From Gemmatimonadota bacterium (GTDB taxonomy: Bacteria > Gemmatimonadota > Gemmatimonadetes > Gemmatimonadales > GWC2-71-9), in assembly GCA_034440415.1 (NCBI GenBank), contig JAWXBX010000122.1:1-58344 (forward strand): a DNA stretch of 58,344 nucleotides, written 5' to 3'. Shown here piece after piece: positions 29,729 through 57,870 of this stretch. The notes below the pieces were generated by a model. It was not told where the DNA came from. It worked only from the letters and a program-made list of their open reading frames with translations, and made no database searches. Each line of letters opens with the position of its first letter. The first letter of the stretch is position 1. The translations under genes and the position numbers were made by a program.

Positions 29729-29759
29729 ACCGCAGGGTGCCGCCCAGGGGGTAGGGAGT

Positions 29760-32587: not shown

Positions 32588-32596
32588 TCCGGGATC

Positions 32597-40421: not shown

Positions 40422-40423
40422 GC

Positions 40424-41975: not shown

Positions 41976-42151
41976 CGATTAGACTATCATTCATTCGCGC
42001 AAGCCATTTATTCGCAATAGCTTACGGAGTTTCTCCGTGCTCGAGGCAGGCTGGAAGAGTGCCCCGGCCTGTGCGGATGCGGCGCAATCGCCACAGAATG
42101 CAACCGGGGGGTTGCCTCCCGCTATTCCGGCGCAGTCCCAGGAGCCTGTTG

Positions 42152-42964: not shown

Positions 42965-43016
42965 TGAGCCGCAGGCCTCTCTTCCAGCCCGCAGCTCACC
43001 CTCGCTCTCCTGACAT

Positions 43017-43925
43017 ATGCCTGCTCTCTTCCTGACCGGCGGTACCGGGTTCGTTGGACGGGTGCTGCTGGCGCGGCTGCTCGCCCGGCCAGCCGGCGAC
43101 GTCACCTGCCTGGTCCGCGATCCGGCTCGCCTGATCGTCCCGGCCGGCGGCCGGACGCCTCGCGTCGTCGGCGGGGACCTTGGCTCTGTCGAGGCACTCG
43201 CGGAGGCGATGCGGGGGTGCGATGTCGTGCTGCACTTGGCGGCGAGCACGGGAAAGGCGACGGCCGCAGCCCACCAGCGCGCCAACCTCGAGGGCACCCG
43301 CACGCTCATCGCCGCCGCCAAACGGGTCGGCGTCCCGCGCTTTGTCTATGTCAGCACGATCGCCGCCGGCTTCCCCGACCAGCGATTCTACCCCTACGCG
43401 GCCAGCAAGGCGGCCGCCGAGGTTGCCGTCCGAGAAAGCGGGCTCGACTGGACCATTGTCCGACCGACCATCGTGCTCGGACCGGACAGCCCGATTGGCG
43501 TGGCTTTCGCCAAGCTGGCCGGAGGACCTGCCGTGATGATGTTTGGCGATGGCAAGGCCAGGGTCCAGCCCATCGACGTGGGTGACCTGGCCAATGTGCT
43601 GGTCGCGGTACTCGACAGCTCCGCGGTCTCACACGACACGATCGACGCCGGGGGGCCTGAGGAAATCAGCTTCGAGGAGTTGCTTGCCGGCGTCCGCCAG
43701 CGGCTGCGCGGCAGCCGCACACCGGTACTGCATCTCCCCCTGACCCTGCTGCGCTACGCGCTCGCGGCATTCGAACCGTTGCTCTTCTCCGTTCTGCCGC
43801 TGACGGCTGGGCAGCTCGCCGCATTCGCCAACGACAGTGTCGCCCGCCCACACCCGCTGACGACGGCGCTCCGCCCCGGAATGCAATCGGTGGATCAAAT
43901 GCTCGCGACACGCAATCCGGCGTGA
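43017..43925 (+). CDS. NAD(P)-binding SDR-family protein (atypical epimerase/NmrA-like)
   Basis: MPALFLTGGTGFVGRVLL...YAASKAAAE. Confidence 0.75.
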   Translation: MPALFLTGGTGFVGRVLLARLLARPAGDVTCLVRDPARLIVPAGGRTPRVVGGDLGSVEALAEAMRGCDVVLHLAASTGKATAAAHQRANLEGTRTLIAAAKRVGVPRFVYVSTIAAGFPDQRFYPYAASKAAAEVAVRESGLDWTIVRPTIVLGPDSPIGVAFAKLAGGPAVMMFGDGKARVQPIDVGDLANVLVAVLDSSAVSHDTIDAGGPEEISFEELLAGVRQRLRGSRTPVLHLPLTLLRYALAAFEPLLFSVLPLTAGQLAAFANDSVARPHPLTTALRPGMQSVDQMLATRNPA

Positions 43926-44359
43926 TCACCACGGGTCTCAAGCGGGAATGTGAAGTGTTCTGCCGCTATCTCACCGGCAGCGCCCCGACCGATTACGTGG
44001 TCCGGAAGTACCTCGCCGGTCACGCCGCCATGCCGGCTGCCGGAGCACGGGCCGAGCGTCTGGTCGACCGATGGCTGCTCGTCGTGGCACACACCGGATC
44101 CCCAGGCGCACGGCTCGCCGACTCCTACGCCCGCATCCTTCGGCCGCACGGCCCGCTGCGCCACCGGCTGGTTCTCCTGCTGGCCATCCTGGAAAACAGT
44201 CCCGGCTTCCACGAACGCCTGGATCACGCCACCATTGGCTCGCCGGTGAAGATTCTGCTCGAACTCGGGCTTACCGGCATCGGCTTTGTCCTTCGGCTGG
44301 TCCTGGGGCTCGCCTGCTTCGGGCCGGTACACCTGGTCTCCGGCGCCACGCATGACTGA
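43922..44359 (+). CDS. Small hypothetical protein with C-terminal TM segment
   Basis: 145-aa ORF. GTGA overlap with the SDR stop, and an 8-nt overlap with the next gene. No recognisable motif. Confidence 0.45.
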   Translation: MITTGLKRECEVFCRYLTGSAPTDYVVRKYLAGHAAMPAAGARAERLVDRWLLVVAHTGSPGARLADSYARILRPHGPLRHRLVLLLAILENSPGFHERLDHATIGSPVKILLELGLTGIGFVLRLVLGLACFGPVHLVSGATHD

Positions 44360-45962
44360 CATCGTCATCGTTGGCTCCGGTGCGACCGGCGTGCATTTCG
44401 CGCTCTCGGCGCTCAAGAAGGGTCATCGCGTCACGCTGGTGGATGTGGGCCATGAACGCCCCAGTCCGGTCCGCCCCGACCTCTCCTTCAGCGGGCTCAA
44501 GTCCACGCTCGAAGATCCGGTCAGCTACTTCCTGGGGCCCGATACCACCGCGGTCGTCTATCCAGCCGAGGGAGCAAAGTTCTACGGCTTTCCCCCAAGC
44601 AAGGACTACGTCTTCGCCGCGCCGGGGCGCTTCGGCGTGAACTCGGCCGGCTTCGATCCGGTCGTGTCGTTCGCGCGCGGGGGACTGGCGGAAGCGTGGA
44701 CCGGTGGGGTCTATCCTTTCAATGATGCGGAGCTGGCGGCCTTTCCGTTCGGCTACGAGCAGCTGCGGGCGCACTATCAGGAGATTGCCCGCCGCATCGG
44801 GATCTCCGCCGAGCGCGACGACCTGGAGCGGTTCTCCGTCTTCGACGCCGACTACCAGCCCCCGCTCCGCCTCGATCCGCATTCCGAGCGACTTCTCGCC
44901 GCCTACGCCCGTACCCGCGGGGCACTCCACCAGCAGCTCGGCGTCTACCTTGGGCGCTCCCGCGTCGCCACCCTCACGCAGGACCTCGGCGACCGGAAAG
45001 CCTGCGACTATCTTGGCCGCTGCCTCTGGGGCTGCCCCCGGGAATCGCTCTACGCGCCGTCCTACACGCTGCGCGACTGTCAGCGCTTTCCGCAGTTCAT
45101 CTATCGCCCCGGCCTGCTGGTCAGCCACTTCGAATACGACGCCGAGCGGCGCGTCACCGGGCTGGTCGCCGATCCGCTGCCGGAGGGCGCGCGCACGCAG
45201 ATCGGGGGCGACCTCTTCGTGCTTGCAGCAGGGACGCTCTGCTCCTCCAAGCTGATGCTCGACTCCCGCTACCAGGCTACCGGCGAGATTGTCACCCTGC
45301 CCGGCCTGATGGACAATCAGCAGATCATGCTGCCGTTCTTGAACCTGGGGATGATCGGACAGCCGGTGTCCATGGCGAGTTACCAGTTTCACGAGCTGGC
45401 CCTTGGCATGACGGGCAGGACGGAGGCCGACTATGTACACGGGCAGGTGACGACACTGAAAGCCGCGTCGGTCCACCCGATCATGCAGAGCCTGCCGCTC
45501 GATTTCGGCTCGGCCAGCCGCTTCGTCCAGGGACTCCGCGCCGGGCTGGCGGTCGCCAACATCTGGCTGCCTGACCGGCGCGATGATCGCAACACGCTGA
45601 CGCTCACACCGGCGGCGGAGCCCGGCCGGACTCGACTCGTCCTCAGCTACGGCACGGCGGGTCGGGAAACGGATGAAGTGAAGCGGGTGATCCGGACGAT
45701 GGGAAAGGCGCTGCGGAAACTGGGGTGCATCGTGCCACCGGGGATGACCAAGGTCCTGCCGAAAGGAGCGAGCATCCATTACGCTGGTACGCTGCCGATG
45801 TCCCGCACGCCTGCGCCGTTCACCGTGTCGCCCGACTGCCGGAGCTGGGACTACAGCAATCTCATCGTCGCCGACGGGGCGACGTTCCCCTTCCTGCCAG
45901 CGAAAAACCTCACCTTTACGCTCATGGCCAACGCGGTGCGCGTCGCGGACGCGGTGCTGTAG
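44352..45962 (+). CDS. GMC-family FAD oxidoreductase
   Basis: MTDIVIVGSGATGVHFAL. C-terminal GMC_oxred_C-like ...ASIHYAGTLPM...LIVADGATFPFLPAKNLTFTLMANA. Confidence 0.8.
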   Translation: MTDIVIVGSGATGVHFALSALKKGHRVTLVDVGHERPSPVRPDLSFSGLKSTLEDPVSYFLGPDTTAVVYPAEGAKFYGFPPSKDYVFAAPGRFGVNSAGFDPVVSFARGGLAEAWTGGVYPFNDAELAAFPFGYEQLRAHYQEIARRIGISAERDDLERFSVFDADYQPPLRLDPHSERLLAAYARTRGALHQQLGVYLGRSRVATLTQDLGDRKACDYLGRCLWGCPRESLYAPSYTLRDCQRFPQFIYRPGLLVSHFEYDAERRVTGLVADPLPEGARTQIGGDLFVLAAGTLCSSKLMLDSRYQATGEIVTLPGLMDNQQIMLPFLNLGMIGQPVSMASYQFHELALGMTGRTEADYVHGQVTTLKAASVHPIMQSLPLDFGSASRFVQGLRAGLAVANIWLPDRRDDRNTLTLTPAAEPGRTRLVLSYGTAGRETDEVKRVIRTMGKALRKLGCIVPPGMTKVLPKGASIHYAGTLPMSRTPAPFTVSPDCRSWDYSNLIVADGATFPFLPAKNLTFTLMANAVRVADAVL

Positions 45963-46073
45963 CTCCTGCGACCTGGCGGTCATGCACTCGAGTATGGCGC
46001 CCACCGGCAGGCCCGACAGGATATTGCCGCCGAAGGGCGACACTCTCGAACCCGGGGGGTGGCGTGTCGCCTC

Positions 46074-47627
46074 TCAGGCGCGCGCCTTCAGCGTCTGATA
46101 GTCCGTTTTATCCGTCGAGGTGTACGGGATCGCATCCAGCCAGACGTAGGCGTCCGGCGCCATGTAGCGGGGCAGCGCCTCGACCGAAAAGCGCCTGAGC
46201 TGAATCAGCCCCGGCCTGGACTCACCCTTCGCCACCAGGAACGCGGTGATCCTCACCCCCGAGGCGGGGTCTGGAACCGCGACCACAGCCACCTCGACCA
46301 CCTCGGGGTGCCGCGCCAGTCCCGCCTCGATCTCGCCCAGCTCGATCCGATAGCCCCGCCGCTTCACCATCCGGTCGCGCCGACCATGAAAAAGAAAAGT
46401 CCCGTCGGCTTCCTCCACGACGATGTCGCCGGTGTGATACCAGCGGGCGCCGTCCGGGTCGGCCAGAAACGCCGCGGTGTTCCGGTCCGGCAGATTCCAG
46501 TACCCCGTCATGATGCCGGGGCCGCTGATGAGCAGTTCCCCCTCTTCGCCTTTCGGCACCGTACGATCATCAAGGTCTACCACACGGGAGCGGAGGTGCG
46601 AGCAGGTCTTTCCGATCGGGTAGGGGTCGGTGCGCTCCTCCGGAATGACGACGGGAATTTCCTGCGCCGTGCAGACGTTGGTTTCGGTGGGCCCGTAGAG
46701 ATTCCAGTAGACCGGGTGCCGGACAATGCGCTTGAGGGCACGGAGCTGGGGCACCGGGAACACCTCGCCGGCGAACAGCACCAGCCGCAGCGCCGAGAGG
46801 TCCTGCCGCTCCAGCTTGCCGTACTGCGTCAGCATGTTCAGGATCGACGGCGTCGAGTACCACACCGTGATCCGCTGCTCGGCGATCATCGGCGCCAGGG
46901 CGAGCGGTTCCTTGCCCAGATCCTCGCCGATCAGGACGACGCGGGCTCCATGCTTGAGCGGCACGTAGAGGTCGAGAATGGAGAGATCAAAGTGAAAGGG
47001 CGCGTGAGAGGAGAAGACATCCGTCGACGTCGGAGTGAACACTTCGGTACACCAGTCGACGTAGCTGATCGCCGCCCGGTGGGTCAGCATCACGCCCTTC
47101 GGTTTCCCGGTCGATCCCGAGGTGTAGAGAATGTAGGCCAGATCATCGGGGCCGCGCTCGACCGTCCGAGTGACTGGTGGAGTCCCCACCGCCCGGGCGA
47201 TTCCCTGGCCACCCGGGGCAGGCTCGATTGCGAGCGTCCGCGGCTCGTGGCCGAGTGCGGTGAGCTCACCGCGCAGAGCCGTGGCGGCGGATCGCTCGAC
47301 CAGAACCACGCGGACCAGGCAATCCTGGAAGATCGTCGCGGCGCGGGCGGGCGGCGAATGGGGATCCACCGGCACGTAGACCGCCCCTGCCCGAAGCGCG
47401 CCCAATACGACGGCGAGGCTGTCGATGGACTTGGGCAGGTGAAGGCCGACCCGGTCGCCCGGCGCCACGCCCTGCTCGACCAGCCAGTCCTTCACCCGAC
47501 CGGAGAGCGCATCAAGCTGGGCATAGTCGATTGTCCCGCCAGCCGGCTCAACGGCGGCGGGGCGACCGGGATCTCGTGCGGCGGCCCGTTCGAAGAGCAC
47601 CGCGAGAGAGGGCGCGGAGAGAGTCAC
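46074..47627 (-). CDS. Stand-alone NRPS-type adenylation enzyme (DltA/PltF-like aminoacyl-carrier-protein ligase)
   Basis: A3 LAYILYTSGSTGKPKGV, A4 FHFDLS, A5 NLYGPTE, A7 YHTGD, A8 GRRDRMVKRRGYRIELGEIE, A10-like PYTSTDKTDY. GTG start. Confidence 0.9.
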   Translation of the reverse strand: MTLSAPSLAVLFERAAARDPGRPAAVEPAGGTIDYAQLDALSGRVKDWLVEQGVAPGDRVGLHLPKSIDSLAVVLGALRAGAVYVPVDPHSPPARAATIFQDCLVRVVLVERSAATALRGELTALGHEPRTLAIEPAPGGQGIARAVGTPPVTRTVERGPDDLAYILYTSGSTGKPKGVMLTHRAAISYVDWCTEVFTPTSTDVFSSHAPFHFDLSILDLYVPLKHGARVVLIGEDLGKEPLALAPMIAEQRITVWYSTPSILNMLTQYGKLERQDLSALRLVLFAGEVFPVPQLRALKRIVRHPVYWNLYGPTETNVCTAQEIPVVIPEERTDPYPIGKTCSHLRSRVVDLDDRTVPKGEEGELLISGPGIMTGYWNLPDRNTAAFLADPDGARWYHTGDIVVEEADGTFLFHGRRDRMVKRRGYRIELGEIEAGLARHPEVVEVAVVAVPDPASGVRITAFLVAKGESRPGLIQLRRFSVEALPRYMAPDAYVWLDAIPYTSTDKTDYQTLKARA

Positions 47628-47763
47628 GCGCTGGTCGGCTGCGCCGGCCGCTCGTAGCGTGGTCGTGGCGAACGCGCCGGGACCCGACTTCCAGGAAGCT
47701 CGGTCCGCTCGACCAGTCGATGCACACCATCCGCGAGCACCGGATGGGGAAGCGCCCGACGAA

Positions 47764-48027
47764 TCACACCCGTGCGCCGAGCTTGGACTGCACCATGGTC
47801 GCGATGGCGCTTAACGTCCCGAGGTTCGAGGCATCAACTTCGTGCGCCTCGAGGGTGATCGCGAACTGCTTCTCCAGAAACGAGACCAGCTCCAGCGTGG
47901 CCAGCGAGTCCAGAATGCCGCTGGACAGCAGCTCGGTGGTCGGCGTCAGGTTCGCCGGGTCCTCGCCCGGCAGGTGGGTCTGCAGCAGGTATTGTCTGAC
48001 GGACTGGATGATCTGATCGGCGTTCAT
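47764..48027 (-). CDS. Acyl/peptidyl carrier protein
   Basis: 87 aa. Phosphopantetheine site motif SSGILDSLATLELVSFLE. Confidence 0.85.
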   Translation of the reverse strand: MNADQIIQSVRQYLLQTHLPGEDPANLTPTTELLSSGILDSLATLELVSFLEKQFAITLEAHEVDASNLGTLSAIATMVQSKLGARV

Positions 48028-48049
48028 GCCAACTCCGCTTCAATTGGGG

Positions 48050-50605
48050 TTAGTGTGTTCCCGGGGAAACCATCCCACCGGCATCGACGGCGGGGCCAGT
48101 GACGCCCCATGCAGTCAGATACCCATGCTGCCCCAGCTCGCGGAACAGCCGATCCGCCATGTACTGGTGCCCCTGCACGCTGGGATGCTTGTCCCACTCG
48201 GACATCCGCAGCAACTCCTCGTTCTGGTCCTCGAAGTCCATCATGTCGATGAACGGGAGGTGGTACTTGGTGGCGAGCGCGAGCCCTTCCTCCTTGCCGG
48301 TCTCCATCTCGGTCGGCTGCCGCACGTAAAGCAGCGCCAACGGCAGCTTGTGTGCCGCCACCACGTGGGCCACGATTCCCAGAGAGAGATCCAGGAAGGC
48401 CTCTCGCTGGGGCATGAGCACCTTCATGTTGGTGGGCGAATTCTGGCTCGCCGTGAAACCCAGACTGTCCAGGAACCGCTTGACCTCGGGGAACACCGGG
48501 TCCACGCCGAGCTTGAGTGCCCGCTCGAGCGAGAGGATGCCCGCCCCCCGGTCTGGCCCGGGATGGAACGCGAACAGGACGAGGTCGGGATCGAAGGGGG
48601 GCACCTTCGTATCCAGCACCCAGGCCCGTTGCCACACGCCGGAGCGCGCGACACCAAAGTTGAGTACCTCGATGTGATCGTACTTGCCTCGGGTATTGCG
48701 GGCGTTCAGCTGCTCCTCGAGGATCGCCTCGAAAGTCTGGTCGTTGGCGACACCGCTGCCCATCACGTCACTCGGCCCGACCACCGCAATGCGGAAGGTG
48801 CGGGGCGGCTTCGTCAGGGTGTAGGGGCCATCGCGGAGGCCGAAGTCGTTGGTGGCGAACCGGACACCGCGCCACAGGGTATCGACGTTCGGGGCGAGGG
48901 CGCCGAGCAGGGGGGTCGAGGCCTTCTGCCAGAGGCTCGACGTCTCGAACTCCTCGATCCGCTCACGGCGGCGCGCGGCATCGGCCGCCTGCAGCTCATT
49001 GGTCTGGGAACTCCCCAGGTCGAGTTGCTCATAGTAGCCCCGCAGCAGCGATCCTTCGTCCCGGCGGTTGAGCCGGTTCTCCCTGAGGGTCGCCAGGAAA
49101 TCCCGCCTGGCCTGGCTCAGCATCCCAGGGAGCGACGGATTCGCCAGGATGGCGAGGACCGCCGTGGTCGCCAGGGTGATCATGAGGGACCGGCGAGCTT
49201 CCTGTCCTTCCGTTCCAGGACCGCGCGCCACTTTTTCCAGCACGCCAAAGCGGGCACCGCCAAGCCCGATCCCGGTAGCCGCCACCGCGACGAATATCAC
49301 GACACTCTTCAGATTCCACACCAGCGCGGCATCCCAGATTGTGAGCCACTCGGCGATGGAGCCCGCCGACCAGAAGGACCAGAGGAAACAGAGGGTGCTC
49401 ATCGTCGCCAGGACCGAGAGGCCCCGGCTGAAGCTCCAGAGGGGCACGGCCACCTTGGTGCGCGGCTTCTTCAGTTCTTGAACCGCCTGGTAGGTGATCA
49501 ACGTGCCCAGCACAGCGTAGAACGAAATATCCTGGACCGTGAACAGTGGCGCGCCCCGCAGCCAGAACCACATCCACGAATGCCCCAGCCAGGTCACGAG
49601 GAAGACCAGGGCGAGGGACACGGTGGTGACGAATGCAGGGGAGCGTCCCCGCAGCCGGAAATACATCGGATAGTACACCAGCTTGATGGTCGCGTCTCGC
49701 CAGTAGATGTTGTTCCGTCGGAAGAGATCGGTGAATCCGGCCGACAGCCAGTAGAGATGATTGGTCTCCGGCAGATGGAATCCGAAGAGGTGCAGCAGGC
49801 CGATGGCCAGGTGGAACGTGCCCGACAGCCGCAGGTAGACCATGAAGCTCGTCAGGACGTACTGCAGCAGGTCGCCGGCATTCACCACCTCGGTGGCATC
49901 GAGGGTGAAGTGGTGGTAGACCAGCCGGTAGATGACGATCTGCAGCAGTCCGCGGGCCATCCAGTGCAGCCCGCGCTGGTAGATCCGGTAGGCGTCGGTA
50001 TCGAAGTAGGTCCGCTCGTACGTCTTGAAGTCCACCGCCGGGAACAGCGGCATGCAGACATTCGGCAGCAGGAAGAAGTAACTCAGGCTCCGCGTGAGCG
50101 GCGGCGGTTCGGCGGCGTGAGAGAGGTCATACAGATAGAGCACCATCCGGATCATGAACATGCTGCCCAGCACCGGCCAGACGCCGTTCGGCACCCCGTT
50201 CGGCAGCAGCTCCCCGCGGAGGATGATCATCACGGCGACCGCCGCACCGACCAGCGCGAGACGGTAGCCGAAGCGGATCGGGAGATAGGTGAGGCCGACC
50301 AGCGGGAGACCCAGCCCCAGCAGCCAGAGCATCGGTGTCGTCCCGAGCACCACCTGGATGCCGACCACCGACAGCAGCAGGAAGAAGCCCAGGCGATACC
50401 GCATCGGGAGGAGCGCGTGAATGACGAAACCGATCAGCGCCAGCACCATCAAATTGCCAAACGGCTTGGAAATCACCTCAAGCGCGCGAGTCAGCCCGAC
50501 CAGCAGGCCTAGCTGCACCCCAACTCCGAGCACCACGCGCACCTCGGCCCAGTTGAGCCGGGCGCTTGGTGCGTCGTCTGAAGCGACCGCGACCGCGTTA
50601 CTCAT
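48050..50605 (-). CDS. MBOAT-family membrane O-acyltransferase fused to a C-terminal SGNH/DltD/AlgX-like domain
   Basis: N-terminal region of about 470 aa: SGTFHLAIGLLHLFGFHLPETN...FRRNNIYW...TWLGHSW resembles the AlgI/DltB core. C-terminal region of about 380 aa has VVGPSDVMGSG and WDKHPSVQGH blocks. ATG 50605 has an AGGAG SD. The track start 50758 is rejected. Confidence 0.85.
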   Translation of the reverse strand: MSNAVAVASDDAPSARLNWAEVRVVLGVGVQLGLLVGLTRALEVISKPFGNLMVLALIGFVIHALLPMRYRLGFFLLLSVVGIQVVLGTTPMLWLLGLGLPLVGLTYLPIRFGYRLALVGAAVAVMIILRGELLPNGVPNGVWPVLGSMFMIRMVLYLYDLSHAAEPPPLTRSLSYFFLLPNVCMPLFPAVDFKTYERTYFDTDAYRIYQRGLHWMARGLLQIVIYRLVYHHFTLDATEVVNAGDLLQYVLTSFMVYLRLSGTFHLAIGLLHLFGFHLPETNHLYWLSAGFTDLFRRNNIYWRDATIKLVYYPMYFRLRGRSPAFVTTVSLALVFLVTWLGHSWMWFWLRGAPLFTVQDISFYAVLGTLITYQAVQELKKPRTKVAVPLWSFSRGLSVLATMSTLCFLWSFWSAGSIAEWLTIWDAALVWNLKSVVIFVAVAATGIGLGGARFGVLEKVARGPGTEGQEARRSLMITLATTAVLAILANPSLPGMLSQARRDFLATLRENRLNRRDEGSLLRGYYEQLDLGSSQTNELQAADAARRRERIEEFETSSLWQKASTPLLGALAPNVDTLWRGVRFATNDFGLRDGPYTLTKPPRTFRIAVVGPSDVMGSGVANDQTFEAILEEQLNARNTRGKYDHIEVLNFGVARSGVWQRAWVLDTKVPPFDPDLVLFAFHPGPDRGAGILSLERALKLGVDPVFPEVKRFLDSLGFTASQNSPTNMKVLMPQREAFLDLSLGIVAHVVAAHKLPLALLYVRQPTEMETGKEEGLALATKYHLPFIDMMDFEDQNEELLRMSEWDKHPSVQGHQYMADRLFRELGQHGYLTAWGVTGPAVDAGGMVSPGTH

Positions 50606-50779
50606 CTCGCTCCTTGCATGGCCTGGCACAGCAGGACTGTGCCAGAGGCAGAACGGCGCCGGGAGACTCCAGGCGCATCGTGGTCCGGCAGCCGACCGGA
50701 CTTGGGCAATTGAGAAAGACAGGGCGAACAGCGCCAAGCCATCCCGGGAAGGGAGCACGGCGCTGAGGTCTCATGACCT

Positions 50780-50795
50780 AGCGATTCTCATGCCA
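50780..50795 (-). promoter_or_regulatory. Sigma-54 -24/-12 promoter candidate for the MBOAT/carrier-protein/A-enzyme operon
   Basis: The minus strand reads TGGCATgagaaTCGCT (GG 50794-93, GC 50782-81). It lies about 175 nt upstream of ATG 50605. Confidence 0.4.
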
Positions 50796-50940
50796 GACAC
50801 GCACTGACACGAGCATAGGTAGGTATCTGTAGCACAGAGACTTGGACGATGTTCAGCGGATGGGTCTATCGCGCAATTCGGTATGTGGCAAGCGTGCCGC
50901 AGAGCCGGGCCATCACCCTGCCTCCGCCGTCATCGGCGGG

Positions 50941-52095
50941 TCAGAGGCCGAGACTCCGAGCGATCAGGTTGCGCTGGATGTCGCTGGTGCCGGAGTACAG
51001 GGTTCCGCCGACCGCGTCGCGCAGTTCGCGCTCCACCTCGTACTCCGTCGTGTAACCGTAGCCGCCCCGCACCTGCACGGCATCGAGGCAGGACTGCACC
51101 ATGGCCTCGCCGAGGTAGAGCTTGGCGATGGCGGCCGGCGCGCCGGGTGCCGTGTTGGTCTGCTTGGCCCAGGCAGCCTTATAGAGAAGGAGCCGGGCGG
51201 CCTCCAGCCGGACCTTCATGTCGACGATCCGATGCGAGACCGCCTGGAAGTCGCCGATCGGCTTGCCGAACTGCTTTCGCTCGCGGGCGTAGCGGACCGC
51301 GTCCTCGATCAAACGCTCGAGGGTGCCGAGGTTGCTGGCGAGGATGCAGCCCCGCTCCCATTCCATGGAATCGTTGAACAGCTGCACCCCGCGGCCTTCC
51401 CGGCCGAGCAGATTGGCGGCCGGCACCCGCGCCCGGTCGAAGACCAGCTCCGCCATCGGCGAGGTTTTGAGCCCCATTTTGCCGATCTTCTTGCCCACCG
51501 TGAAGCCCGGAGTAGTGCGCTCGACGAGGAACGCGGAGAGCCCAAGCGCCCCTTTGGCACGGTCAATGGTGGCAAAGACAAGAAAGAGATCCGCCACCGG
51601 GGCTTCGCTGACGAACGTCTTGGTACCGGTCAGCACGTAGTGGTCCCCATCCCGCGCCGCCGTGGTGCTGAGCGCGAAGGCGTCGGAGCCGCTGTCAGGC
51701 TCACTCATCCCGTGGGCCCCGATCCACTCGCCGCTGTTCAGGCGCGGGAGGTAGCGACGCTTCTGCTCCTCAGTCCCGTGGCGGAGGATCGGCATCTGCA
51801 CGCTCCACATCTGCGCCGCCAGGGCGAACAGGAGCCCGTTGTCCCGACAGGCGTACCCCAGCGCCTCCATGCCGAGGATGGTGGTGAGGATGTCCACCCC
51901 GCCACCACCGTACGACTCGGGAAACGGGAGCCCCTGAATCCCGAATGCGCCGCACTGGGTCCACAGATCGCGTGAGAACTCTGCAACATGATCTCGTCGG
52001 ATGAGGTCATCCTGTAGAGCCTTCTTGCCGAATTGAATGACCGTGTCACGGAACTCGAGTTGCTCCTGGCTCCAGGCGAAGTCCATATTGCTCAA
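50941..52095 (-). CDS. Acyl-CoA dehydrogenase-family flavoprotein (candidate acyl-carrier-protein dehydrogenase)
   Basis: 384 aa. ...WIGAHGMSEPDSGSD...GGYGYTTEYEVERELRDAV...LYSGTSDIQRNLIA. Full-length ACAD architecture. Confidence 0.9.
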   Translation of the reverse strand: MSNMDFAWSQEQLEFRDTVIQFGKKALQDDLIRRDHVAEFSRDLWTQCGAFGIQGLPFPESYGGGGVDILTTILGMEALGYACRDNGLLFALAAQMWSVQMPILRHGTEEQKRRYLPRLNSGEWIGAHGMSEPDSGSDAFALSTTAARDGDHYVLTGTKTFVSEAPVADLFLVFATIDRAKGALGLSAFLVERTTPGFTVGKKIGKMGLKTSPMAELVFDRARVPAANLLGREGRGVQLFNDSMEWERGCILASNLGTLERLIEDAVRYARERKQFGKPIGDFQAVSHRIVDMKVRLEAARLLLYKAAWAKQTNTAPGAPAAIAKLYLGEAMVQSCLDAVQVRGGYGYTTEYEVERELRDAVGGTLYSGTSDIQRNLIARSLGL

Positions 52096-52187
52096 TGGGT
52101 TGGCGTAATCCAGGCCTGCGGTGTCGTCGGCGACGAACAGCTGGGACCTTTGCAGTATCCGTGCGCGTCATCCCGCGAAGGGAAAAG

Positions 52188-52195
52188 TGTATAAT
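52188..52195 (+). promoter_or_regulatory. Extended -10 (TGTATAAT) sigma-70-type promoter candidate in the divergent ACAD/halogenase gap
   Basis: TGtATAAT at 52188-52195 in a GC-poor patch. No convincing -35 box. Confidence 0.3.
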
Positions 52196-52206
52196 GTTTG
52201 GCCAGA

Positions 52207-52222
52207 AGGCATGGAACGTGCT
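52207..52222 (+). promoter_or_regulatory. Sigma-54 -24/-12 candidate upstream of the halogenase/ABC operon
   Basis: AGGCATggaacGTGCT: GG 52208-09, GC 52220-21. It lies about 120 nt upstream of ATG 52344. Confidence 0.3.
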
Positions 52223-52343
52223 AATATGTCCGGTCGATTCGACACCAAGAAGCCCCACAACTGTCGCTGCCCGCTGACGGACCGGAACAGGGTCGGCGGA
52301 GTGGTGTGCGCCAGCCGATTGGCACTTTTCCCCGAGGCACTCG

Positions 52344-53609
52344 ATGACGTTGACGACCGATGTGGCCATCATTGGCGGTGGACCCGGTGGATGCACCGCC
52401 GCCATGTTTCTCGCCCAGCGAGGAATCCGATCGATCATCATCGAAAAGGACGAATTCCCCCGGTATCATATCGGCGAATCTATGACGGGGGAATGCGGTG
52501 GCATTCTCCGCCGGCTGGGGCTCGGCGAGAAGATGATCCAGGCCAGGCACCCGCAGAAGCAGGGTGTGAAGGTGTACGGTCCTTCCGGCCACGGACACTG
52601 GTATGTCCCGGTCATGCGCCGCAATGAGGCGGGGAACCTGGAGGCGATCAACACCTTTTCCGTTCGTCGCAGCAGTTTCGACCGGATGATGCATGACGAG
52701 GCTGCCGCCCGGGGCGCGGAAATGCTCCGTGCCGAGGCGATTCGGCCGCTCTGGGCGGCCGACGGTCGGACCATGACCGGCGTCCGGGTCCGTCTGCCCA
52801 GCGGCGTGGAAGAAGATGTGCGGGCCCGGGTCACGCTGGACATCACCGGCCAGAAGACCTTCTTCGCCCATCAGAACGTCTGCTCCGAAAAGGTGCCCGG
52901 CCGCTACGACAAGCAGGTGGCGGTCTTCTCCCATGTCGCCAATCCCATCCGGGATGACGGCTCCTCCCGCCAGAACCACCCCGACAATACCCTCATCTTC
53001 TACAAGGGGAAGTTCCACTGGTCGTGGTTCATCCCGCTCGATCATGAGACCGTCAGCGTCGGGGTCGTGGCGCCGGGAGCATATTTCGCCGCCCAGAAGG
53101 AGAGCAAGGCGGACTACCTGCGGCGCGAGTTGCGGGAACTGAACCCCGAGCTCGCCCGGCGCGTCGTCGACAATGCGCTGACCGAGGAAGCCCGGGCCAT
53201 CCCCAACTACTCCTATCACAGCCGGACCTTCACCGGGCCGGGCTGGATGTGCATTGGCGACACCCACCGGTTCATCGACCCGATCTTCTCCTTCGGCCTG
53301 TTCGTCTCGATGAAGGAGGCGGAAGAATCGGTTCCCGTCATCGCCCGCTTCCTGGGCAACGAGCATGTCGGCCCGGGGAATCCCTTCCACGCCCACATGG
53401 AGCGGCTCGAGCGGGGCCTGGACCTGACCCAGGACCTGATTGACGGCTTCTGGGAGAATCCGCTCGGCTTCGCCCACCTTTTGCACCGTGGGACTCATCA
53501 GGACGACATCACCGACCTCTTTGCCGGCCGGATCTACATGGATGAGCCCTCGGGTGGCGTGCTGGCACTCAGAAAACTGGCGCAGGCAGGACTCGCCAAA
53601 GCAGGCTGA
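52344..53609 (+). CDS. Flavin-dependent halogenase homologue (CndH/PltA-like)
   Basis: GxGxxG VAIIGGGPGG. FPRYHIGESM. Lys motif HPQKQGVKV. WxWxIP motif FHWSWFIPL. GDTHRFIDPIFSFG. Confidence 0.8.
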   Translation: MTLTTDVAIIGGGPGGCTAAMFLAQRGIRSIIIEKDEFPRYHIGESMTGECGGILRRLGLGEKMIQARHPQKQGVKVYGPSGHGHWYVPVMRRNEAGNLEAINTFSVRRSSFDRMMHDEAAARGAEMLRAEAIRPLWAADGRTMTGVRVRLPSGVEEDVRARVTLDITGQKTFFAHQNVCSEKVPGRYDKQVAVFSHVANPIRDDGSSRQNHPDNTLIFYKGKFHWSWFIPLDHETVSVGVVAPGAYFAAQKESKADYLRRELRELNPELARRVVDNALTEEARAIPNYSYHSRTFTGPGWMCIGDTHRFIDPIFSFGLFVSMKEAEESVPVIARFLGNEHVGPGNPFHAHMERLERGLDLTQDLIDGFWENPLGFAHLLHRGTHQDDITDLFAGRIYMDEPSGGVLALRKLAQAGLAKAG

Positions 53610-55002: not shown

Positions 55003-55754
55003 CGCACCTTCGTCGCGCAGGCCCGTTCCTGGTGATCGCAGGCTTCATCGCTCTCTGGTGGCTGGGCGCCTCGGATAGCGTCATCTTCCCCACACCGGGT
55101 CAGGTGGCCACCGCCCTGGTCGAGCTGGTGCGCGAGGGCACCCTGATCCGGCACGTCGCGTCGTCACTCTACCGCGTGACCCTCGGCTATGGACTGGCGC
55201 TCCTCCTGGGCATCCCCGTCGGCAGCCTGATGGGATGGTACCCCGGCATCTACCGCGCCCTGAACCCGATCGTGCAGCTCCTGCGGCCGATCTCGCCGAT
55301 CGCGTGGATTCCGCTGGCCATCCTCTGGTTTGGCGTGGGAGACAGTTCGCCGATCTTCCTGATCTTCCTGTCATCGTTCTTCCCGCTGGTCGTCTCGACC
55401 ACCGCTGGCGTGCACCTGGTCGAGCAGCAGTATGTCCGTGCCGCCAAGAATTTCGGAGTCACCGGTCTCGAGCTCTACCGCCGGGTGATCTTTCCCGGCG
55501 CCCTCCCCAGCATCATCACCGGCATGCGCGTCGGACTCGGCATCGCCTGGCTCGTGGTGGTCGCGGCGGAGATGGTCGCCATCAACTCGGGGCTCGGCTA
55601 CCTCATCATCGACTCGCGCAACGCCGGCACCCGGTACGACCTGGTCGTGGCCGGCATGGTGATCATCGGCGTTATCGGCTTCATCCTCGACATCATCATG
55701 CGTCGCCTGGAAACCCTGGACGAGGTCCGCTGGCGCTATGGCACCACGCGCTAA
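54999..55754 (+). CDS. ABC transporter permease (NitT/TauT family)
   Basis: 6 TM helices. EAA-type loop ...[31 protein letters not shown]... ATGA overlap with the binding-protein gene. Confidence 0.9.
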
Positions 55755-57870
55755 GTACGAGGTCACCGGCATCTCCAAGAGCTTCGCCGGCGAAACCGGT
55801 CCGCTCCAGGCGATCGCCGACGTCAGCCTCACCGTCCATGAGGGTGAATTCGTCGCCCTGGTCGGCCCGTCCGGCTGCGGCAAGTCGACCCTGCTCAATA
55901 TCCTGGGTGGATTTGACACCCCCGACCACGGCGAGGTCCTGCTGGACGGCGCCCCCATCACGGAGCCGAGTCGCCGAGGCATCCTGATCACCCAGCGCGG
56001 CTCGGTCTTTCCGTGGATGACCGTACGGCAGAATCTCGAGTTCGCCACCCGCGAGCTGCCGGCGGCAGAGATTGCACAGCGCTTCGCCCACTATATCGAC
56101 TTCGTCGGGCTGCGCGGATTCGAGGACGCGTGGCCCCACCAGCTCTCGGGCGGCATGCTCCAGCGGGTCGAGGTAGCGCGCGCCCTGATGGCCAAGCCCG
56201 ACGTGCTGCTGATGGACGAGCCCTTCGGCGCGCTGGACGCGCTCACCCGCATGCGGATGCGGGGCGAGCTGATCGAGATTCTCGCGCGGGACAGCCACAC
56301 CTGCCTGCTGGTCACTCACGACGTCGAGGAGGCGCTTCACCTCGCCGACCGCATCGTCGTCTTCAGCCCGCGCCCGGCGAAGATCCAGTGCATTCTGGAA
56401 GTGAACGCACCTCACCCCCGGGTGCTCTCCCATCCCGGCATGATCGCGCTGAAGGAACGCATCCTCCAGGAACTGGGGCTTTCCTCCCTCGACGTCCTCC
56501 GGGACACCGCCGCTCCAGTCGAACAAGGCCAGGGCCGGAGCGCGATACCGGAGGACCACATTGCCCCCAGGGGGTTATCAGTTCGACCGCTCAGCCCCCG
56601 CCCCAGAATCGGCGGGGAAGCGGTCGAGCAGTTCGACGTGGTGGTCGTGGGGGGAGGGCCCGCCGGCGCCAGCGCCGCCACGGTGCTCGCCACCGAGGGC
56701 TTCAAGGTACTGGTCCTCGAACGGGAGCACTTTCCCCGATACCACGTCGGGGAATCCCTGCTGCCGATCGCCTGGGACCTCTTTGATCGGCTGGGAGTGA
56801 CGGCAGAGGTGGAGGCCGAGGGCTTCGTCGTGAAGCAGGGCATCTCCTTCGGGCTGCCGGGGCAGGCAGACGAGCTGTCGTTCCGGACGTCGGAGTACCC
56901 GGAATACTTCCAGCGGCCCTACACCTTCCACGTCGAGCGGGCCCGGTTCGACGAGATTCTGCTGCATAACGCCCGGGACAGGGGCGCGACCGTCCGGGAG
57001 GGGTGGGTCGTGCGGGACGTGTTGTTCCAGGGCGATACCGCTGTCGGCGTGCTGGCCGGGCCGGTGGGCGAGGAACCCCACCCGATCCTCGCCCCCATGG
57101 TGGTGGACGCCACCGGGCAGAACTGCCTGCTGGCCCGCAAGCTCGGCTGGCGGCGCCCGGACCCGACGCTCAACAAGGTGGCGCACTACGCCCATTTCAC
57201 CGGCGGATTTCGCCCTGTCGCCGAGAAATCGGAGGGCGAGATCCAGATCGAGAACGCGAGCGCGACACATGTCTACGCCATCGAGGGCGGCTGGGTGTGG
57301 TACATCCCACTGCGCGACGACACCGTCAGCGTCGGGGTCGTCCTGGACGCGAAGTTTGACAGCGCGAAGCGGGGCAACCCCCAGACCCGGTTCGACGATG
57401 CCATTCAGTCCTGCCCCAGAGTCCGGGAGTGGCTCACCGGCGCCCAGCCGGCGATGGAGGTCCAGACCATCTCGAATATCTCGTATCTGAACGACTGTTT
57501 CGTGGGGAACGGCTTCGTGCTGGTGGGCGACGCCTCGATGTTCATCGACCCGATCTTCTCCTCGGGGGTGTCCCTGGCCATGCGGAGCGGCATCTACGCT
57601 GCCGAGGCGATCATCGACTGCGCGATCCACAAGGACTACAGCGCGGCCCGGCTGGAGCACTATGAGGCCCGGATCCGGCTGCCGATGAGTCGCATCTTCA
57701 AGATGATCTACAACTGGTACGCGATCCTGGAGAAGCCGGAGGCAGACAATATCTTCGTGCGCGCCCGGAACAGCCCGTTGCTGCGCGAGCGGCTCCTGGT
57801 GCTGTTCTCCGGTGGCTACGACCGCCTCGACTTCGAGTCCCTGCTGACCGCCGAGGGGGAACGGCACTAG
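55738..57870 (+). CDS. Fusion protein: NitT/TauT-type ABC ATPase (aa 1 to about 250), Pro/Arg-rich linker, and flavin-dependent halogenase homologue (aa about 298-710)
   Basis: ATPase: Walker [10 protein letters not shown], signature LSGGMLQRV, Walker [13 protein letters not shown]-loop LVTHD. Halogenase: [39 protein letters not shown] (WxWxIP), [14 protein letters not shown]. Single uninterrupted 710-aa ORF. Confidence 0.85.

What the first reader, a model, noticed from the sequence alone, without database searches (positions are those of the whole stretch)
46074..50605. All four Dlt functions compressed into three genes (A enzyme, carrier protein, DltB-like MBOAT fused to a DltD/SGNH-like domain) in an EPS locus
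The operon order is MBOAT-fusion, carrier protein, A enzyme.

- The A enzyme has the NRPS A8 motif GRRDRMVKRRGYRIELGEIE. It also has FDLS, with the Asp that in A domains pairs with a substrate alpha-amino group. This argues for an amino-acid substrate rather than a fatty acid.
- The MBOAT part keeps an Asn/His pair about 45 residues apart (FRRNNIYW ... TWLGHSW).
- The C-terminal region of about 380 aa has GDS-like (VVGPSDVMGSG) and Asp/His (WDKHPSVQGH) blocks.

In Firmicutes, DltA/C/B/D use this logic to D-alanylate teichoic acids. A fused DltB-DltD-like protein inside an exosortase-type polysaccharide island is unusual. It suggests aminoacyl esterification of a secreted glycan.
Basis: partly seen in the sequence, partly recalled or inferred. 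Interest (0 to 1): 0.7.

Follow-up and report, generated by a model that had tools for sequence, protein, structure and literature searches.

The report
Proline-to-pyrrole surface acylation gene cassette
A four-gene set found in hundreds of bacterial species probably loads proline on a carrier protein, oxidises it to a pyrrole acid and passes it through a fused membrane enzyme to a target outside the cell, which would be a Dlt-like surface modification using a chemical group not known from cell envelopes.

Summary
On the minus strand lie an adenylating enzyme (46074-47627), an 87-aa carrier protein (47764-48027) and an 851-aa protein (48050-50605). Pfam does not detect an MBOAT domain in the 851-aa protein. 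Its AlphaFold model matches DltB, HHAT and PORCN at the N-terminus and SGNH hydrolases at the C-terminus.

The interpretation needs correcting in three ways:
- **The cassette has four genes.** An acyl-CoA-dehydrogenase-type gene (50941-52095) is co-located in 38 of 44 related loci with enough flank. Its best solved relatives are the prolyl-carrier-protein dehydrogenases AnaB, Bmp3 and PigA.
- **The A enzyme is a proline ligase, not DltA-like.** All nine readable specificity-code positions (DLLYLALVC) are identical to PltF.
- **A halogenase sits next door.** A Bmp2-like pyrrolyl-carrier-protein halogenase (52344-53609) is divergently adjacent.

The acyl group delivered is therefore most likely (halo)pyrrole-2-carboxyl, or possibly dehydroprolyl, rather than an aminoacyl group.

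The fusion is not rare. At least 564 species genomes across about ten phyla carry it. An invariant GYYE in the flexible linker is a candidate built-in acyl-tyrosine shuttle. The acceptor is unknown, and a glycan is plausible but unproven. I found no paper describing this system.

The parts
50941..52095 (-). Acyl-CoA-dehydrogenase-fold flavoenzyme, a prolyl-carrier-protein dehydrogenase homolog.
   Evidence: It has all three Pfam ACAD domains. The best NCBIfam hits are PigA (433 bits) and RedW (431 bits), both below the equivalog cut-offs of 500 and 650. The best PDB hits are 4IRN AnaB prolyl-ACP dehydrogenase (458 bits, E 1.9e-136), then 6CXT (which I recall to be Bmp3) and 5ZW0 PigA. It is co-located with the MBOAT-SGNH gene in 39 of 44 loci with 5 kb or more on both flanks, at 50-80% identity.
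48050..50605 (-). 851-aa fusion protein made of an MBOAT-fold membrane domain, two extra helices, a flexible linker and an SGNH domain.
   Evidence: The ATG start at 50605 is supported by 851-aa homologs that cover 100% of the query. AF2 model. Foldseek matches to DltB, HHAT and PORCN, and to SGNH hydrolases. More than 1100 full-length homologs were found.
49361..50551 (-). MBOAT-fold core, about residues 19-415, with conserved N299 and H342.
   Evidence: Foldseek aligns about 420-430 columns with DltB 8JEM (417 aa). H265, R296, R297, N299 and H342 are at least 97% conserved. The Pfam MBOAT model does not hit.
49028..49039 (-). Invariant G523-Y524-Y525-E526 in the linker, a candidate acyl-tyrosine shuttle.
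   Evidence: It is conserved in 99-100% of 119 homologs. It lies in the only internal low-confidence segment, 517-550. The translation was checked. The analogy is to the FxYxxF acyl-shuttle motif of DltX and PatA (PMC12148441). The shuttle role is an inference.
48101..48883 (-). SGNH-fold domain, about residues 575-835, with Ser612 (GPS), N649 and D805-x-H807.
   Evidence: Foldseek matches TesA, Axe2 and other GDSL proteins. The profile hits the GDSL structures 9OTV and 6HFZ. PF13472 is present in homologs. The catalytic residues are conserved.
47764..48027 (-). Stand-alone carrier protein with the phosphopantetheine site at Ser41 in GILDSL.
   Evidence: PP-binding scores 29.4 bits. Weak PDB hits include the prolyl carriers CcbZ, Bmp1-CP (6CXT_A), PigG and PltL, and also DltC. 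The gene lies directly downstream of the MBOAT-SGNH gene in 52 of 70 loci.
46074..47627 (-). Stand-alone adenylation enzyme with a PltF-type L-proline specificity code.
   Evidence: TIGR01733 scores above its cut-off. The best stand-alone PDB hit is PltF 6O6E at 331 bits, against about 207 bits for DltA. The code DLLYLALVC is identical to PltF at 9 of 9 positions. The code is conserved in the related loci.
52344..53609 (+). FADH2-dependent halogenase, Bmp2-like, transcribed divergently from the dehydrogenase gene.
   Evidence: It carries GGGPGG and WSWFIP motifs. The best PDB hit is 5BVA/5BUL (flavin-dependent halogenase, which I recall to be Bmp2) at 233 bits, E 6.9e-68, aligned over its full length. 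Mpy16 and PltA are also hit. A halogenase-like gene is present in 16 of 44 well-flanked loci.
56623..57870 (+). Second halogenase domain, fused to the C-terminus of an ABC ATPase (whole ORF 55738-57870). It is a possible accessory part.
   Evidence: Pfam Trp_halogenase plus ABC_tran. It has a WVWYIP motif. The best PDB hits are CndH 3E1T (207 bits), PltA (195 bits) and Mpy16 (187 bits).

Best explanation
This is a four-gene cell-surface acylation module. It joins a thiotemplated pyrrole pathway to a Dlt-like export and transfer enzyme.

**Proposed steps**
1. The A enzyme activates L-proline with ATP and loads it on the phosphopantetheine arm of the 87-aa carrier protein. This is inferred from a specificity code identical to PltF.
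2. The ACAD-type flavoenzyme oxidises prolyl-S-carrier to pyrrolyl-2-carboxyl-S-carrier. This is inferred from homology to AnaB, Bmp3 and PigA. Four-electron rather than two-electron oxidation is favoured by the neighbouring pyrrole halogenase.
3. In this lineage one or two FADH2-dependent halogenases halogenate the tethered pyrrole.
4. The carrier protein docks on the cytoplasmic face of the DltB-fold MBOAT domain. The conserved His342 catalyses transfer of the acyl group to a tyrosine of the invariant GYYE motif in the flexible linker on the outer face.
5. Ser612 of the fused SGNH domain takes the acyl group and esterifies a hydroxyl of an extracytoplasmic acceptor. That acceptor is most plausibly a polysaccharide or another envelope polymer.

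Steps 4 and 5 are inferred by analogy with DltB/DltX/DltD and PatA/PatB. The acceptor is unknown.
For: **Substrate and oxidation**
- The A enzyme passes the amino-acid adenylation model.
- Its best stand-alone solved relative is the proline ligase PltF.
- It shares all nine specificity positions with PltF but not with DltA.
- The code is conserved across phyla.
- The four best PDB hits of the ACAD are all prolyl-carrier-protein dehydrogenases.
- HAL1 aligns over its full length with the pyrrolyl-ACP brominase Bmp2, E 6.9e-68.

**Gene linkage**
- Of 44 related loci with 5 kb or more on both flanks, 38 hold A, carrier and ACAD next to the MBOAT-SGNH gene.
- These four genes plus the halogenase are the only gene families that recur widely.
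- The carrier gene is immediately downstream of the MBOAT-SGNH gene in 52 of 70 loci, even where the A and ACAD genes sit elsewhere.

**Transfer enzyme**
- The N-terminal domain has a DltB-like fold and the C-terminal domain an SGNH fold.
- His342, Ser612, Asp805 and His807 are conserved.
- GYYE is invariant and lies in a disordered linker.
- The published acyl-Tyr shuttle mechanism for MBOAT/SGNH pairs provides the model (PMC12148441).

**Setting**
- Neighbours that recur in 6-9 loci are polysaccharide genes.
- The window itself is an exosortase/EPS island.
Against: - No biochemical data exist for any member of the family.
- The ACAD scores below the NCBIfam equivalog cut-offs for PigA and RedW.
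- Its single best solved relative, AnaB, is reported to stop at the two-electron product (my recollection of the AnaB literature).
- Halogenases accompany only about a third of cassettes.
- In the window a 335-nt gap separates the ACAD gene from the MBOAT-SGNH gene.
- The Pfam MBOAT model does not hit.
- Topology, with the SGNH domain outside, is inferred only. A charge count was uninformative.
- GYYE does not match the published FxYxxF motif.
- SGNH block V reads D-x-H rather than DxxH.
- The neighbourhood outside the cassette varies, so no acceptor pathway is consistently linked.
Confidence: 0.5

Rival explanations
1. The machinery is the same, but the dehydrogenase stops after one two-electron oxidation, as AnaB does. 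The group exported would then be 1-pyrroline-5-carboxyl or dehydroprolyl, an imine-containing ester, rather than aromatic pyrrole-2-carboxyl. This would apply at least in the two-thirds of cassettes that lack a halogenase.
For: AnaB (4IRN) is by far the best solved relative of the ACAD, at 458 bits against 348 for 6CXT and 303 for PigA. The protein falls below the PigA and RedW equivalog cut-offs. Most cassettes have no halogenase nearby.
Against: In this window a Bmp2-like halogenase, whose characterised relatives act on aromatic pyrrolyl-S-carrier proteins, is divergently adjacent to the ACAD. The profile scores to the pyrrole-forming PigA and RedW families are high, at about 430 bits. No sequence rule is known that separates two-electron from four-electron enzymes, so similarity to AnaB may reflect phylogeny only.
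Confidence: 0.2
2. The fused MBOAT-SGNH protein is an off-loading and export device rather than a polymer acyltransferase. It takes (halo)pyrrolyl from the carrier, moves it across the membrane, and the SGNH domain hydrolyses it. Free (halo)pyrrole-2-carboxylate or a decarboxylated halopyrrole is released as a diffusible metabolite.
For: The cassette has no thioesterase, whereas the Bmp pathway needs one for release (my recollection). Its best SGNH structural matches are hydrolases such as TesA, not DltD or PatB. No acceptor-synthesis genes are consistently linked. The halogenases resemble those of the tetrabromopyrrole, pyoluteorin and chondrochloren pathways.
Against: All characterised bacterial MBOAT/SGNH pairs acylate polymers (PMC12148441). 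Polysaccharide genes are the commonest recurrent neighbours, and the window is an EPS island. A membrane-spanning two-domain enzyme with a conserved shuttle-like motif is elaborate for simple hydrolysis.
Confidence: 0.15
3. A Dlt-like system esterifies a secreted glycan with an unmodified amino acid (prolyl or alanyl), and the upstream dehydrogenase is unrelated to it.
For: The A, carrier, MBOAT and SGNH components parallel DltA/C/B/D. The carrier protein has weak DltC hits. A 335-nt gap separates the ACAD gene in the window.
Against: The ACAD is conserved with the cassette in 39 of 44 well-flanked loci. It directly abuts the A gene in 30 of 56 loci. The specificity code equals PltF, not DltA. 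DltA equivalog models score far below their cut-offs, at 251-265 bits against 476-560.
Confidence: 0.05

Closest known systems
Dlt D-alanylation system of Firmicutes (DltA, DltC, DltB, DltX, DltD)
   Same: Both use a stand-alone adenylating enzyme to load a small carrier protein. Both have a DltB-fold MBOAT as the membrane step, and DltB is the best structural match. An SGNH protein performs the last transfer. As far as I could find, this is the only other bacterial MBOAT system built around a carrier-protein donor rather than acyl-CoA (PMC12148441).
   Different: The substrate code is L-Pro (PltF-type), not D-Ala. An extra dehydrogenase, and sometimes a halogenase, remodels the tethered group. 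The MBOAT and SGNH parts are one polypeptide. There is no DltX microprotein, and an internal invariant GYYE may replace it. The hosts are mostly diderm phyla without teichoic acids. The product would be neutral and aromatic rather than cationic.
PatA/PatB, AlgI/AlgJ/AlgX and WssH/WssI polymer O-acetylation systems
   Same: Both pair an MBOAT with an SGNH-type partner to acylate an extracytoplasmic polymer through an acyl-Tyr and then an acyl-Ser intermediate (PMC12148441).
   Different: Those systems use acetyl-CoA, carry FxYxxF at the MBOAT C-terminus and keep the two proteins separate. Here a dedicated carrier protein is encoded next to the enzyme, the domains are fused, and the Pfam MBOAT model does not recognise the domain.
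OatA-type AT3-SGNH fusion O-acetyltransferases
   Same: Both are a single polypeptide with a membrane acyltransferase domain followed by an extracytoplasmic SGNH domain, and both use a Tyr intermediate (PMC12148441).
   Different: The membrane domain of OatA is AT3, not MBOAT, and its donor is acetyl-CoA.
Thiotemplated pyrrole cassettes (PltF/PltL/PltE/PltA; Bmp4/Bmp1/Bmp3/Bmp2; PigI/PigG/PigA; RedM/RedO/RedW) and AnaC/AnaD/AnaB
   Same: Both combine a proline-specific stand-alone A enzyme, with a code identical to PltF, a type II carrier protein, an ACAD-type prolyl-carrier dehydrogenase and a carrier-dependent flavin halogenase.
   Different: In those pathways the pyrrolyl or dehydroprolyl unit goes to a PKS/NRPS or a thioesterase to make a small molecule. 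Here the only conserved downstream partner is a membrane MBOAT-SGNH enzyme.
Pyrrole-2-carboxyl transfer to the noviose sugar in clorobiocin and coumermycin (CloN/CouN proteins), from my own knowledge
   Same: It is a precedent for transfer of a carrier-bound pyrrole-2-carboxyl group onto a sugar hydroxyl.
   Different: That reaction uses soluble cytoplasmic acyltransferases acting on a small-molecule antibiotic. It does not use a membrane MBOAT. I did not test this comparison here.

Membership tests
Dlt D-alanylation system | DltA: D-alanine-specific carrier protein ligase | tested here: not met
   The DltA models NF003417 and TIGR01734 score 265 and 251 bits against cut-offs of 476 and 560. 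The specificity positions differ from B. subtilis and B. cereus DltA and equal PltF.
Dlt D-alanylation system | DltC-type carrier protein | tested here: not met
   A generic PP-binding hit is present. The DltC equivalog models score 29 and 22 bits against cut-offs of 68 and 52.
Dlt D-alanylation system | DltB: MBOAT with a conserved catalytic His | tested here: inconclusive
   The fold matches DltB best and H342 is invariant. No sequence model hits, and residue-level equivalence was not checked.
Dlt D-alanylation system | DltX microprotein with a C-terminal FxYxxF acyl shuttle | tested here: inconclusive
   I saw no separate microprotein gene between the cassette genes. An invariant internal GYYE sits in a flexible linker, but it does not match FxYxxF.
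Dlt D-alanylation system | DltD: extracytoplasmic SGNH transferase acting on (lipo)teichoic acid | tested here: inconclusive
   The SGNH fold and the Ser/Asp/His residues are present. DltD is not among the 50 best structural matches listed, and the topology and acceptor are unknown.
Thiotemplated pyrrole biosynthesis (PltF/L/E type) | Proline-specific stand-alone A enzyme | tested here: met
   TIGR01733 scores above its cut-off. The best stand-alone PDB hit is PltF. The specificity code is identical at 9 of 9 positions.
Thiotemplated pyrrole biosynthesis (PltF/L/E type) | ACAD-family prolyl-carrier-protein dehydrogenase | tested here: inconclusive
   The four top PDB hits are all prolyl-carrier dehydrogenases, E 1.9e-136 to 1.6e-88. 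The PigA and RedW equivalog cut-offs are not reached, at 433 against 500 and 431 against 650. Two-electron and four-electron chemistry cannot be told apart from sequence.
Thiotemplated pyrrole biosynthesis (PltF/L/E type) | Type II peptidyl carrier protein with a DSL serine | tested here: met
   PP-binding hit and GILDSL motif. Weak hits to CcbZ, Bmp1-CP, PigG and PltL.
Thiotemplated pyrrole biosynthesis (PltF/L/E type) | Downstream PKS, NRPS or thioesterase that consumes the pyrrolyl-S-carrier | tested here: not met
   No such gene is among the recurrent neighbours or in the annotated window genes.
Flavin-dependent halogenases acting on carrier-bound pyrroles (Bmp2/PltA/Mpy16) | GxGxxG and WxWxIP motifs and full-length similarity | tested here: met
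   HAL1 has GGGPGG and WSWFIP, and scores 233 bits against 5BVA over residues 6-397. The substrate was not tested.
MBOAT superfamily | Multi-helix MBOAT fold with an invariant His in a membrane helix and an Asn/Asp about 40-50 residues upstream | tested here: met
   Foldseek probability is 1.00 to DltB, HHAT and PORCN. N299 and H342 are 43 residues apart and at least 97% conserved. The Pfam HMM itself does not hit.
SGNH/GDSL hydrolase superfamily | Flavodoxin-like fold with a block I Ser and a block V Asp/His | tested here: met
   Foldseek matches TesA and others. S612, D805 and H807 are conserved. PF13472 is present in homologs. The spacing is D-x-H rather than DxxH (alignment).

The most novel reading that the evidence does not exclude
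Hundreds of bacterial species across about ten phyla decorate an envelope or extracellular polymer with pyrrole-2-carboxylate esters, halogenated in some lineages such as this Gemmatimonadota genome. This would be a previously unrecognised class of cell-surface modification. It would be made by a second carrier-protein-dependent MBOAT system, after Dlt, whose MBOAT, tyrosine shuttle and SGNH transferase are fused in one protein.
Probability: 0.4. Interest if true: 0.85.

Novelty: new variant of a known kind. Interest (0 to 1): 0.72.

Why it matters
- Dlt is so far the only bacterial MBOAT pathway known to take its acyl group from a carrier protein. It is a drug target because D-alanylation sets surface charge. 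A second, widespread carrier-dependent MBOAT system would broaden that paradigm to mostly Gram-negative-type phyla.
- It would link thiotemplated pyrrole chemistry, so far known only from secondary metabolites such as pyoluteorin, prodigiosin and tetrabromopyrrole, to cell-surface or matrix biology.
- An aromatic, possibly halogenated ester on a polysaccharide or cell wall would change hydrophobicity, UV absorbance and resistance to degradation. It would also be a new natural source of organohalogens in soils and sediments.
- The single-chain architecture, with an invariant GYYE, offers a convenient model for testing the acyl-tyrosine shuttle mechanism.
- The hypothesis can be tested directly. 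The predicted mass shifts on the carrier protein are simple to measure. Cultured carriers also exist: Microvirga sp. VF16 on plasmid pMVF16-2 and Methylomonas subterranea SURF-2.

Tried and rejected
- **Family scans of the 851-aa protein.** Pfam and NCBIfam gave no MBOAT hit, even at E=10, and only faint GDSL hits. A profile of 33 homologs against PDB sequences reached only GDSL proteins and no MBOAT. The MBOAT assignment therefore rests on fold.
- **Ornithine-lipid lead.** The carrier protein's best NCBIfam hit is 'ACP for OlsHI'. I read the OlsH/OlsI paper. The score is below the cut-off (88 against 130), that paper's text mentions no acyl carrier protein or MBOAT, and none of the window genes I scanned matched an OlsH or OlsI family. 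I rejected the lead.
- **Specificity code in the literature.** A search for the code string found nothing. I obtained the PltF code from a fragment alignment against the PDB instead.
- **RNA and transcription signals.** Rfam found no RNA family in the window. The promoter and terminator scan of 45800-52600 was at the chance level.
- **Topology.** Loop charge counts on the model helices were uninformative.
- **Literature on the system.** Searches combining MBOAT, SGNH or DltB with pyrrole, prolyl, adenylation or acyl-CoA dehydrogenase found no description.
- **Acceptor pathway.** I looked for a constantly linked acceptor pathway by clustering all ORFs of 79 loci. Nothing beyond the cassette and the halogenase recurs in more than 9 loci.

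Full report
**1. What is in the sequence**

On the minus strand of this 65-67% GC window lie four consecutive ORFs with coding-type composition (GC3 0.82-0.88):
- 52095-50941: 384 aa
- 50605-48050: 851 aa
- 48027-47764: 87 aa
- 47627-46074: 517 aa

Every motif it quoted is present in the translations. The ATG at 50605 is the supported start of the large gene, because 851-aa homologs cover the query from end to end. The window is about 93% identical at protein level to a Gemmatimonadota metagenome-assembled genome (L003).

**2. The three genes of the finding**

*A enzyme.* The 517-aa protein has AMP-binding and AMP-binding_C domains. It passes the amino-acid adenylation model TIGR01733, at 371.7 bits against a cut-off of 317.4. 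So it is an NRPS-type A enzyme, not an acyl-CoA synthetase.

*Carrier protein.* The 87-aa protein is a PP-binding carrier with a GILDSL serine.

*Fusion protein.* Pfam and NCBIfam give no MBOAT hit at all for the 851-aa protein, and only faint GDSL hits. A profile of 33 homologs searched against PDB sequences also fails to reach any MBOAT. The domain assignment therefore rests on structure:
- An AlphaFold2 model built on that alignment has mean pLDDT 82.7 and pTM 0.78.
- In Foldseek against the PDB, its best match is DltB (8JEM, E 1.4e-7, TM 0.66 normalised on DltB). HHAT and PORCN follow.
- A separate series of matches to SGNH hydrolases such as TesA (TM about 0.7) covers the C-terminal domain.
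- Among 119 full-length homologs, N299 and H342 (43 residues apart), S612, N649, D805 and H807 are at least 97% conserved.

One caveat: the SGNH domain resembles generic SGNH proteins rather than DltD in particular.

**3.

*The upstream gene.* The gene at 50941-52095 is an acyl-CoA dehydrogenase-fold protein. Its best solved relatives are all prolyl-carrier-protein dehydrogenases:

| PDB entry | Protein | Bits |
|---|---|---|
| 4IRN | AnaB prolyl-ACP dehydrogenase (E 1.9e-136) | 458 |
| 6CXT | deposited as butyryl-CoA dehydrogenase; I recall it to be the Bmp3-Bmp1 complex | 348 |
| 5ZW0, 6AF6 | PigA | about 300 |

Its best NCBIfam profiles are PigA and RedW at about 430 bits, both below their equivalog cut-offs.

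*The A enzyme's specificity.* Its best stand-alone solved relative is PltF, the L-proline-[prolyl-carrier-protein] ligase of pyoluteorin biosynthesis, at 331 bits. DltA proteins score about 207 bits or less.

I read the Stachelhaus specificity positions by their fixed offsets from the A4 and A5 core motifs. I then checked them in a residue-by-residue alignment with PltF:
- The window enzyme and PltF share D-L-L-Y-L-A-L-V-C at all nine positions visible in that alignment.
- The DltA structures differ at several of these positions.
- The same code, with variation mainly at position 299, recurs in the A enzymes of related loci from many phyla.

*The halogenases.* Divergently transcribed from the dehydrogenase gene is a 421-aa flavoprotein (52344-53609) with GxGxxG and WxWxIP motifs. 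It aligns over its full length with 5BVA/5BUL at 233 bits, E 6.9e-68. I recall that entry to be Bmp2, the brominase that acts on pyrrolyl-S-carrier protein in tetrabromopyrrole biosynthesis. PMC6195506 confirms Bmp2 as the halogenase of that pathway.

A second halogenase domain is fused to an ABC ATPase at 55738-57870. Its best matches are CndH, PltA and Mpy16.

**4. Comparative genomics**

*Size and spread of the family*
- A protein search returned more than 1100 homologs, nearly all about 850 aa. JGI names many of them DltB (MBOAT superfamily), and many carry PF13472 at the C-terminus.
- These come from Gemmatimonadota, Acidobacteriota, Chloroflexota, Planctomycetota, Verrucomicrobiota, Myxococcota, Calditrichota, Methylomirabilota, Binatia, and Beta- and Gammaproteobacteria.
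- The MBOAT domain alone, searched exhaustively against 1.84 billion cluster representatives, finds 587 proteins at E<=1e-30 and only 1144 at E<=1e-3. Almost all are 830-900 aa.

This is therefore a distinct MBOAT clade that is essentially always fused to SGNH. It is too diverged for phmmer to reach canonical MBOATs.

*Gene linkage in the 79 fetched loci*
- tblastn with the window's proteins shows that 38 of 44 loci with at least 5 kb on both sides hold the A enzyme, the carrier and the dehydrogenase next to the fusion gene. The dehydrogenase is 50-80% identical to the window's.
- The commonest gene orders are fusion-carrier-A-dehydrogenase (19 loci) and dehydrogenase-fusion-carrier-A (10 loci, plus 5 with a divergent halogenase).
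- The carrier gene directly follows the fusion gene in 52 of 70 loci, even where the A and dehydrogenase genes sit elsewhere in the locus.
- Clustering all ORFs of the loci shows that these four families, plus a halogenase-like family (23 loci), are the only widely recurrent ones.
- A cultured alphaproteobacterium, Microvirga sp. VF16, carries the cassette on a megaplasmid in a divergent arrangement.

**5. Mechanism proposed**

Shown by sequence and structure comparison:
- a PltF-type proline A enzyme
- a type II carrier protein
- a prolyl-carrier dehydrogenase homolog
- Bmp2/PltA-type halogenases
- a DltB-fold MBOAT fused to an SGNH domain
- tight, phylum-spanning gene linkage of the first three with the last

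Inferred:
1. Proline is loaded on the carrier.
2. It is oxidised on the carrier to pyrrolyl-2-carboxyl. Four electrons are favoured here because the adjacent halogenase's relatives need an aromatic pyrrole. A two-electron, AnaB-like outcome is a live alternative, especially where no halogenase is present.
3. It is optionally halogenated.
4. It is handed by the carrier to the MBOAT domain, as DltC hands D-Ala to DltB.

Published work on DltB/DltX/DltD and PatA/PatB shows that MBOAT/SGNH pairs move the acyl group by way of a tyrosine ester in an FxYxxF 'acyl shuttle' motif and then a serine ester on the SGNH protein (PMC12148441). In the fusion protein the only internal low-confidence, and so presumably flexible, segment is 517-550. 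It contains G523-Y524-Y525-E526, which is 99-100% conserved in 119 homologs. I propose this as the built-in shuttle. It does not match FxYxxF, so this is a hypothesis.

The SGNH domain (Ser612, Asp805, His807) would then esterify an outside acceptor. Its extracytoplasmic location is inferred from homology to DltB and PatA and from two extra helices after the MBOAT core. My charge-based check was uninformative.

**6. The acceptor**

The window is an exosortase/EPS island. It holds an exosortase, a priming glycosyltransferase, a Wzc-like kinase, a sigma-54 regulator, many glycosyltransferases, NDP-sugar genes and GT-C enzymes.

Across other loci, the families that recur in 6-9 loci are polysaccharide-type:
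- NDP-sugar epimerase
- GT2 and GT4 glycosyltransferases
- carbamoyltransferase
- asparagine synthase
- an extra SGNH protein

Of 46 loci of at least 15 kb, 27 hold at least one such gene. There was no background control, and no single acceptor pathway is constant. A glycan acceptor is plausible, but a ubiquitous polymer such as peptidoglycan, or hydrolytic release, cannot be excluded.

**7. Comparison with known systems, and novelty**

The system works like Dlt but fails the membership tests for it:
- The A enzyme's specificity is wrong for DltA.
- DltA and DltC equivalog scores are far below their cut-offs.
- There is no DltX.
- The hosts lack teichoic acids.

Its cytoplasmic half meets the defining features of thiotemplated pyrrole cassettes, except that there is no PKS, NRPS or thioesterase to consume the product.

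Literature searches combining MBOAT, SGNH or DltB with pyrrole, prolyl, adenylation or acyl-CoA dehydrogenase found nothing that describes it. No NCBIfam model exists for the fusion protein.

I rate it a new variant of a known kind: carrier-dependent MBOAT/SGNH acylation with a new acyl chemistry and a fused architecture. It is widespread and uncharacterised.

**8. Verdict**

- Observation: confirmed.
- Interpretation: partly supported.
- Best explanation: confidence 0.5, made up of:
  - about 0.85 that proline is loaded and oxidised on the carrier
  - about 0.7 that this carrier is the MBOAT donor
  - about 0.4 that the acceptor is a glycan
- Interest: 0.72.

Noticed in passing
window 54055-57870 (+): An ABC importer of the NitT/TauT type lies here: an NMT1/SsuA-like binding protein (54055-55002), a permease (54999-55754) and an ATPase. 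The ATPase (55738-57870) is fused at its C-terminus to a complete FADH2-halogenase domain with a WVWYIP motif, most like CndH, PltA and Mpy16. The fusion was seen only in the window and its close relative L003. Transporter genes next to a halogenase also occur in L005 and L022. Whether the transporter supplies halide or another substrate is unknown.
   Followed up: partly
window 17375-26580 (+): Four tandem paralogs of membrane-anchored 'Sulfatase'-family proteins (the LtaS/EptA/OpgB type) lie at 17375-19234, 19357-21252, 21249-23069 and 24619-26580. They are interleaved with a PMT_2 GT-C glycosyltransferase (22856-24793). This is an unusual concentration of phospho-group or glycerophosphate transferase-like genes for a Gemmatimonadota EPS island.
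   Followed up: no
window 42059-45962 (+); also L002, L005, L024, L031: A block of GT2, SDR, a 145-aa protein with no family hit and a GMC oxidoreductase lies immediately beside the cassette. It is conserved there in other Gemmatimonadota loci. It also lies next to the MBOAT-SGNH gene in a Calditrichaceae genome (L031), where no A, carrier or dehydrogenase genes are within the held flank. It could relate to the acceptor, for example oxidation or epimerisation of a lipid-linked sugar.
   Followed up: partly
window 29682-33865 (+): A B12-binding radical SAM protein (29682-31799), a GT2 (31796-32587) and a sugar C-methyltransferase (32597-33865) are followed by nucleotidyltransferase and 4,6-dehydratase genes. 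This suggests a C-methylated deoxysugar in the local glycan.
   Followed up: no
window 38039-41938 (+): Three genes lie between two polyprenyl-phosphate-sugar-type GT2 genes. They are a flippase-like LPG_synthase_TM protein (38039-39001), a flavin amine-oxidase/desaturase-like protein (38994-40421) and a 532-aa membrane protein with only a weak LA_3751/3752 glycosyltransferase hit (40340-41938).
   Followed up: no
window 47764-48027 (-): The carrier protein's best NCBIfam hit is the recently defined 'ACP for OlsHI' ornithine-lipid carrier family, at 87.7 bits against a cut-off of 130. It scores well above DltC and fatty-acid ACP models. This points to a shared clade of stand-alone carriers, not to membership.
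   Followed up: partly
window 48110-48200 (-), residues 803-813 of the fusion protein: SGNH block V reads W-D805-K-H807-P, so the spacing is D-x-H instead of the usual DxxH. In the alignment to a GDSL structure, the structure's Asp falls one position earlier. No conserved block III Asn is evident; the family consensus there is AHxxD.
   Followed up: partly
window 14041-16323 (-), 26577-27320 (+), 27495-28760 (+), 7577-8626 (+), 9027-9824 (+): Several sizeable ORFs with coding-like composition have no Pfam or NCBIfam hit, including a 760-aa one. They lie inside the EPS island.
   Followed up: no
L080 (Microvirga sp. VF16 plasmid pMVF16-2, record 705-712 kb): A cultured rhizobial-type isolate carries the cassette with carrier, A and dehydrogenase genes divergent from the MBOAT-SGNH gene. 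The PLSDB table lists no annotated genes for this stretch. It is a possible experimental host.
   Followed up: partly
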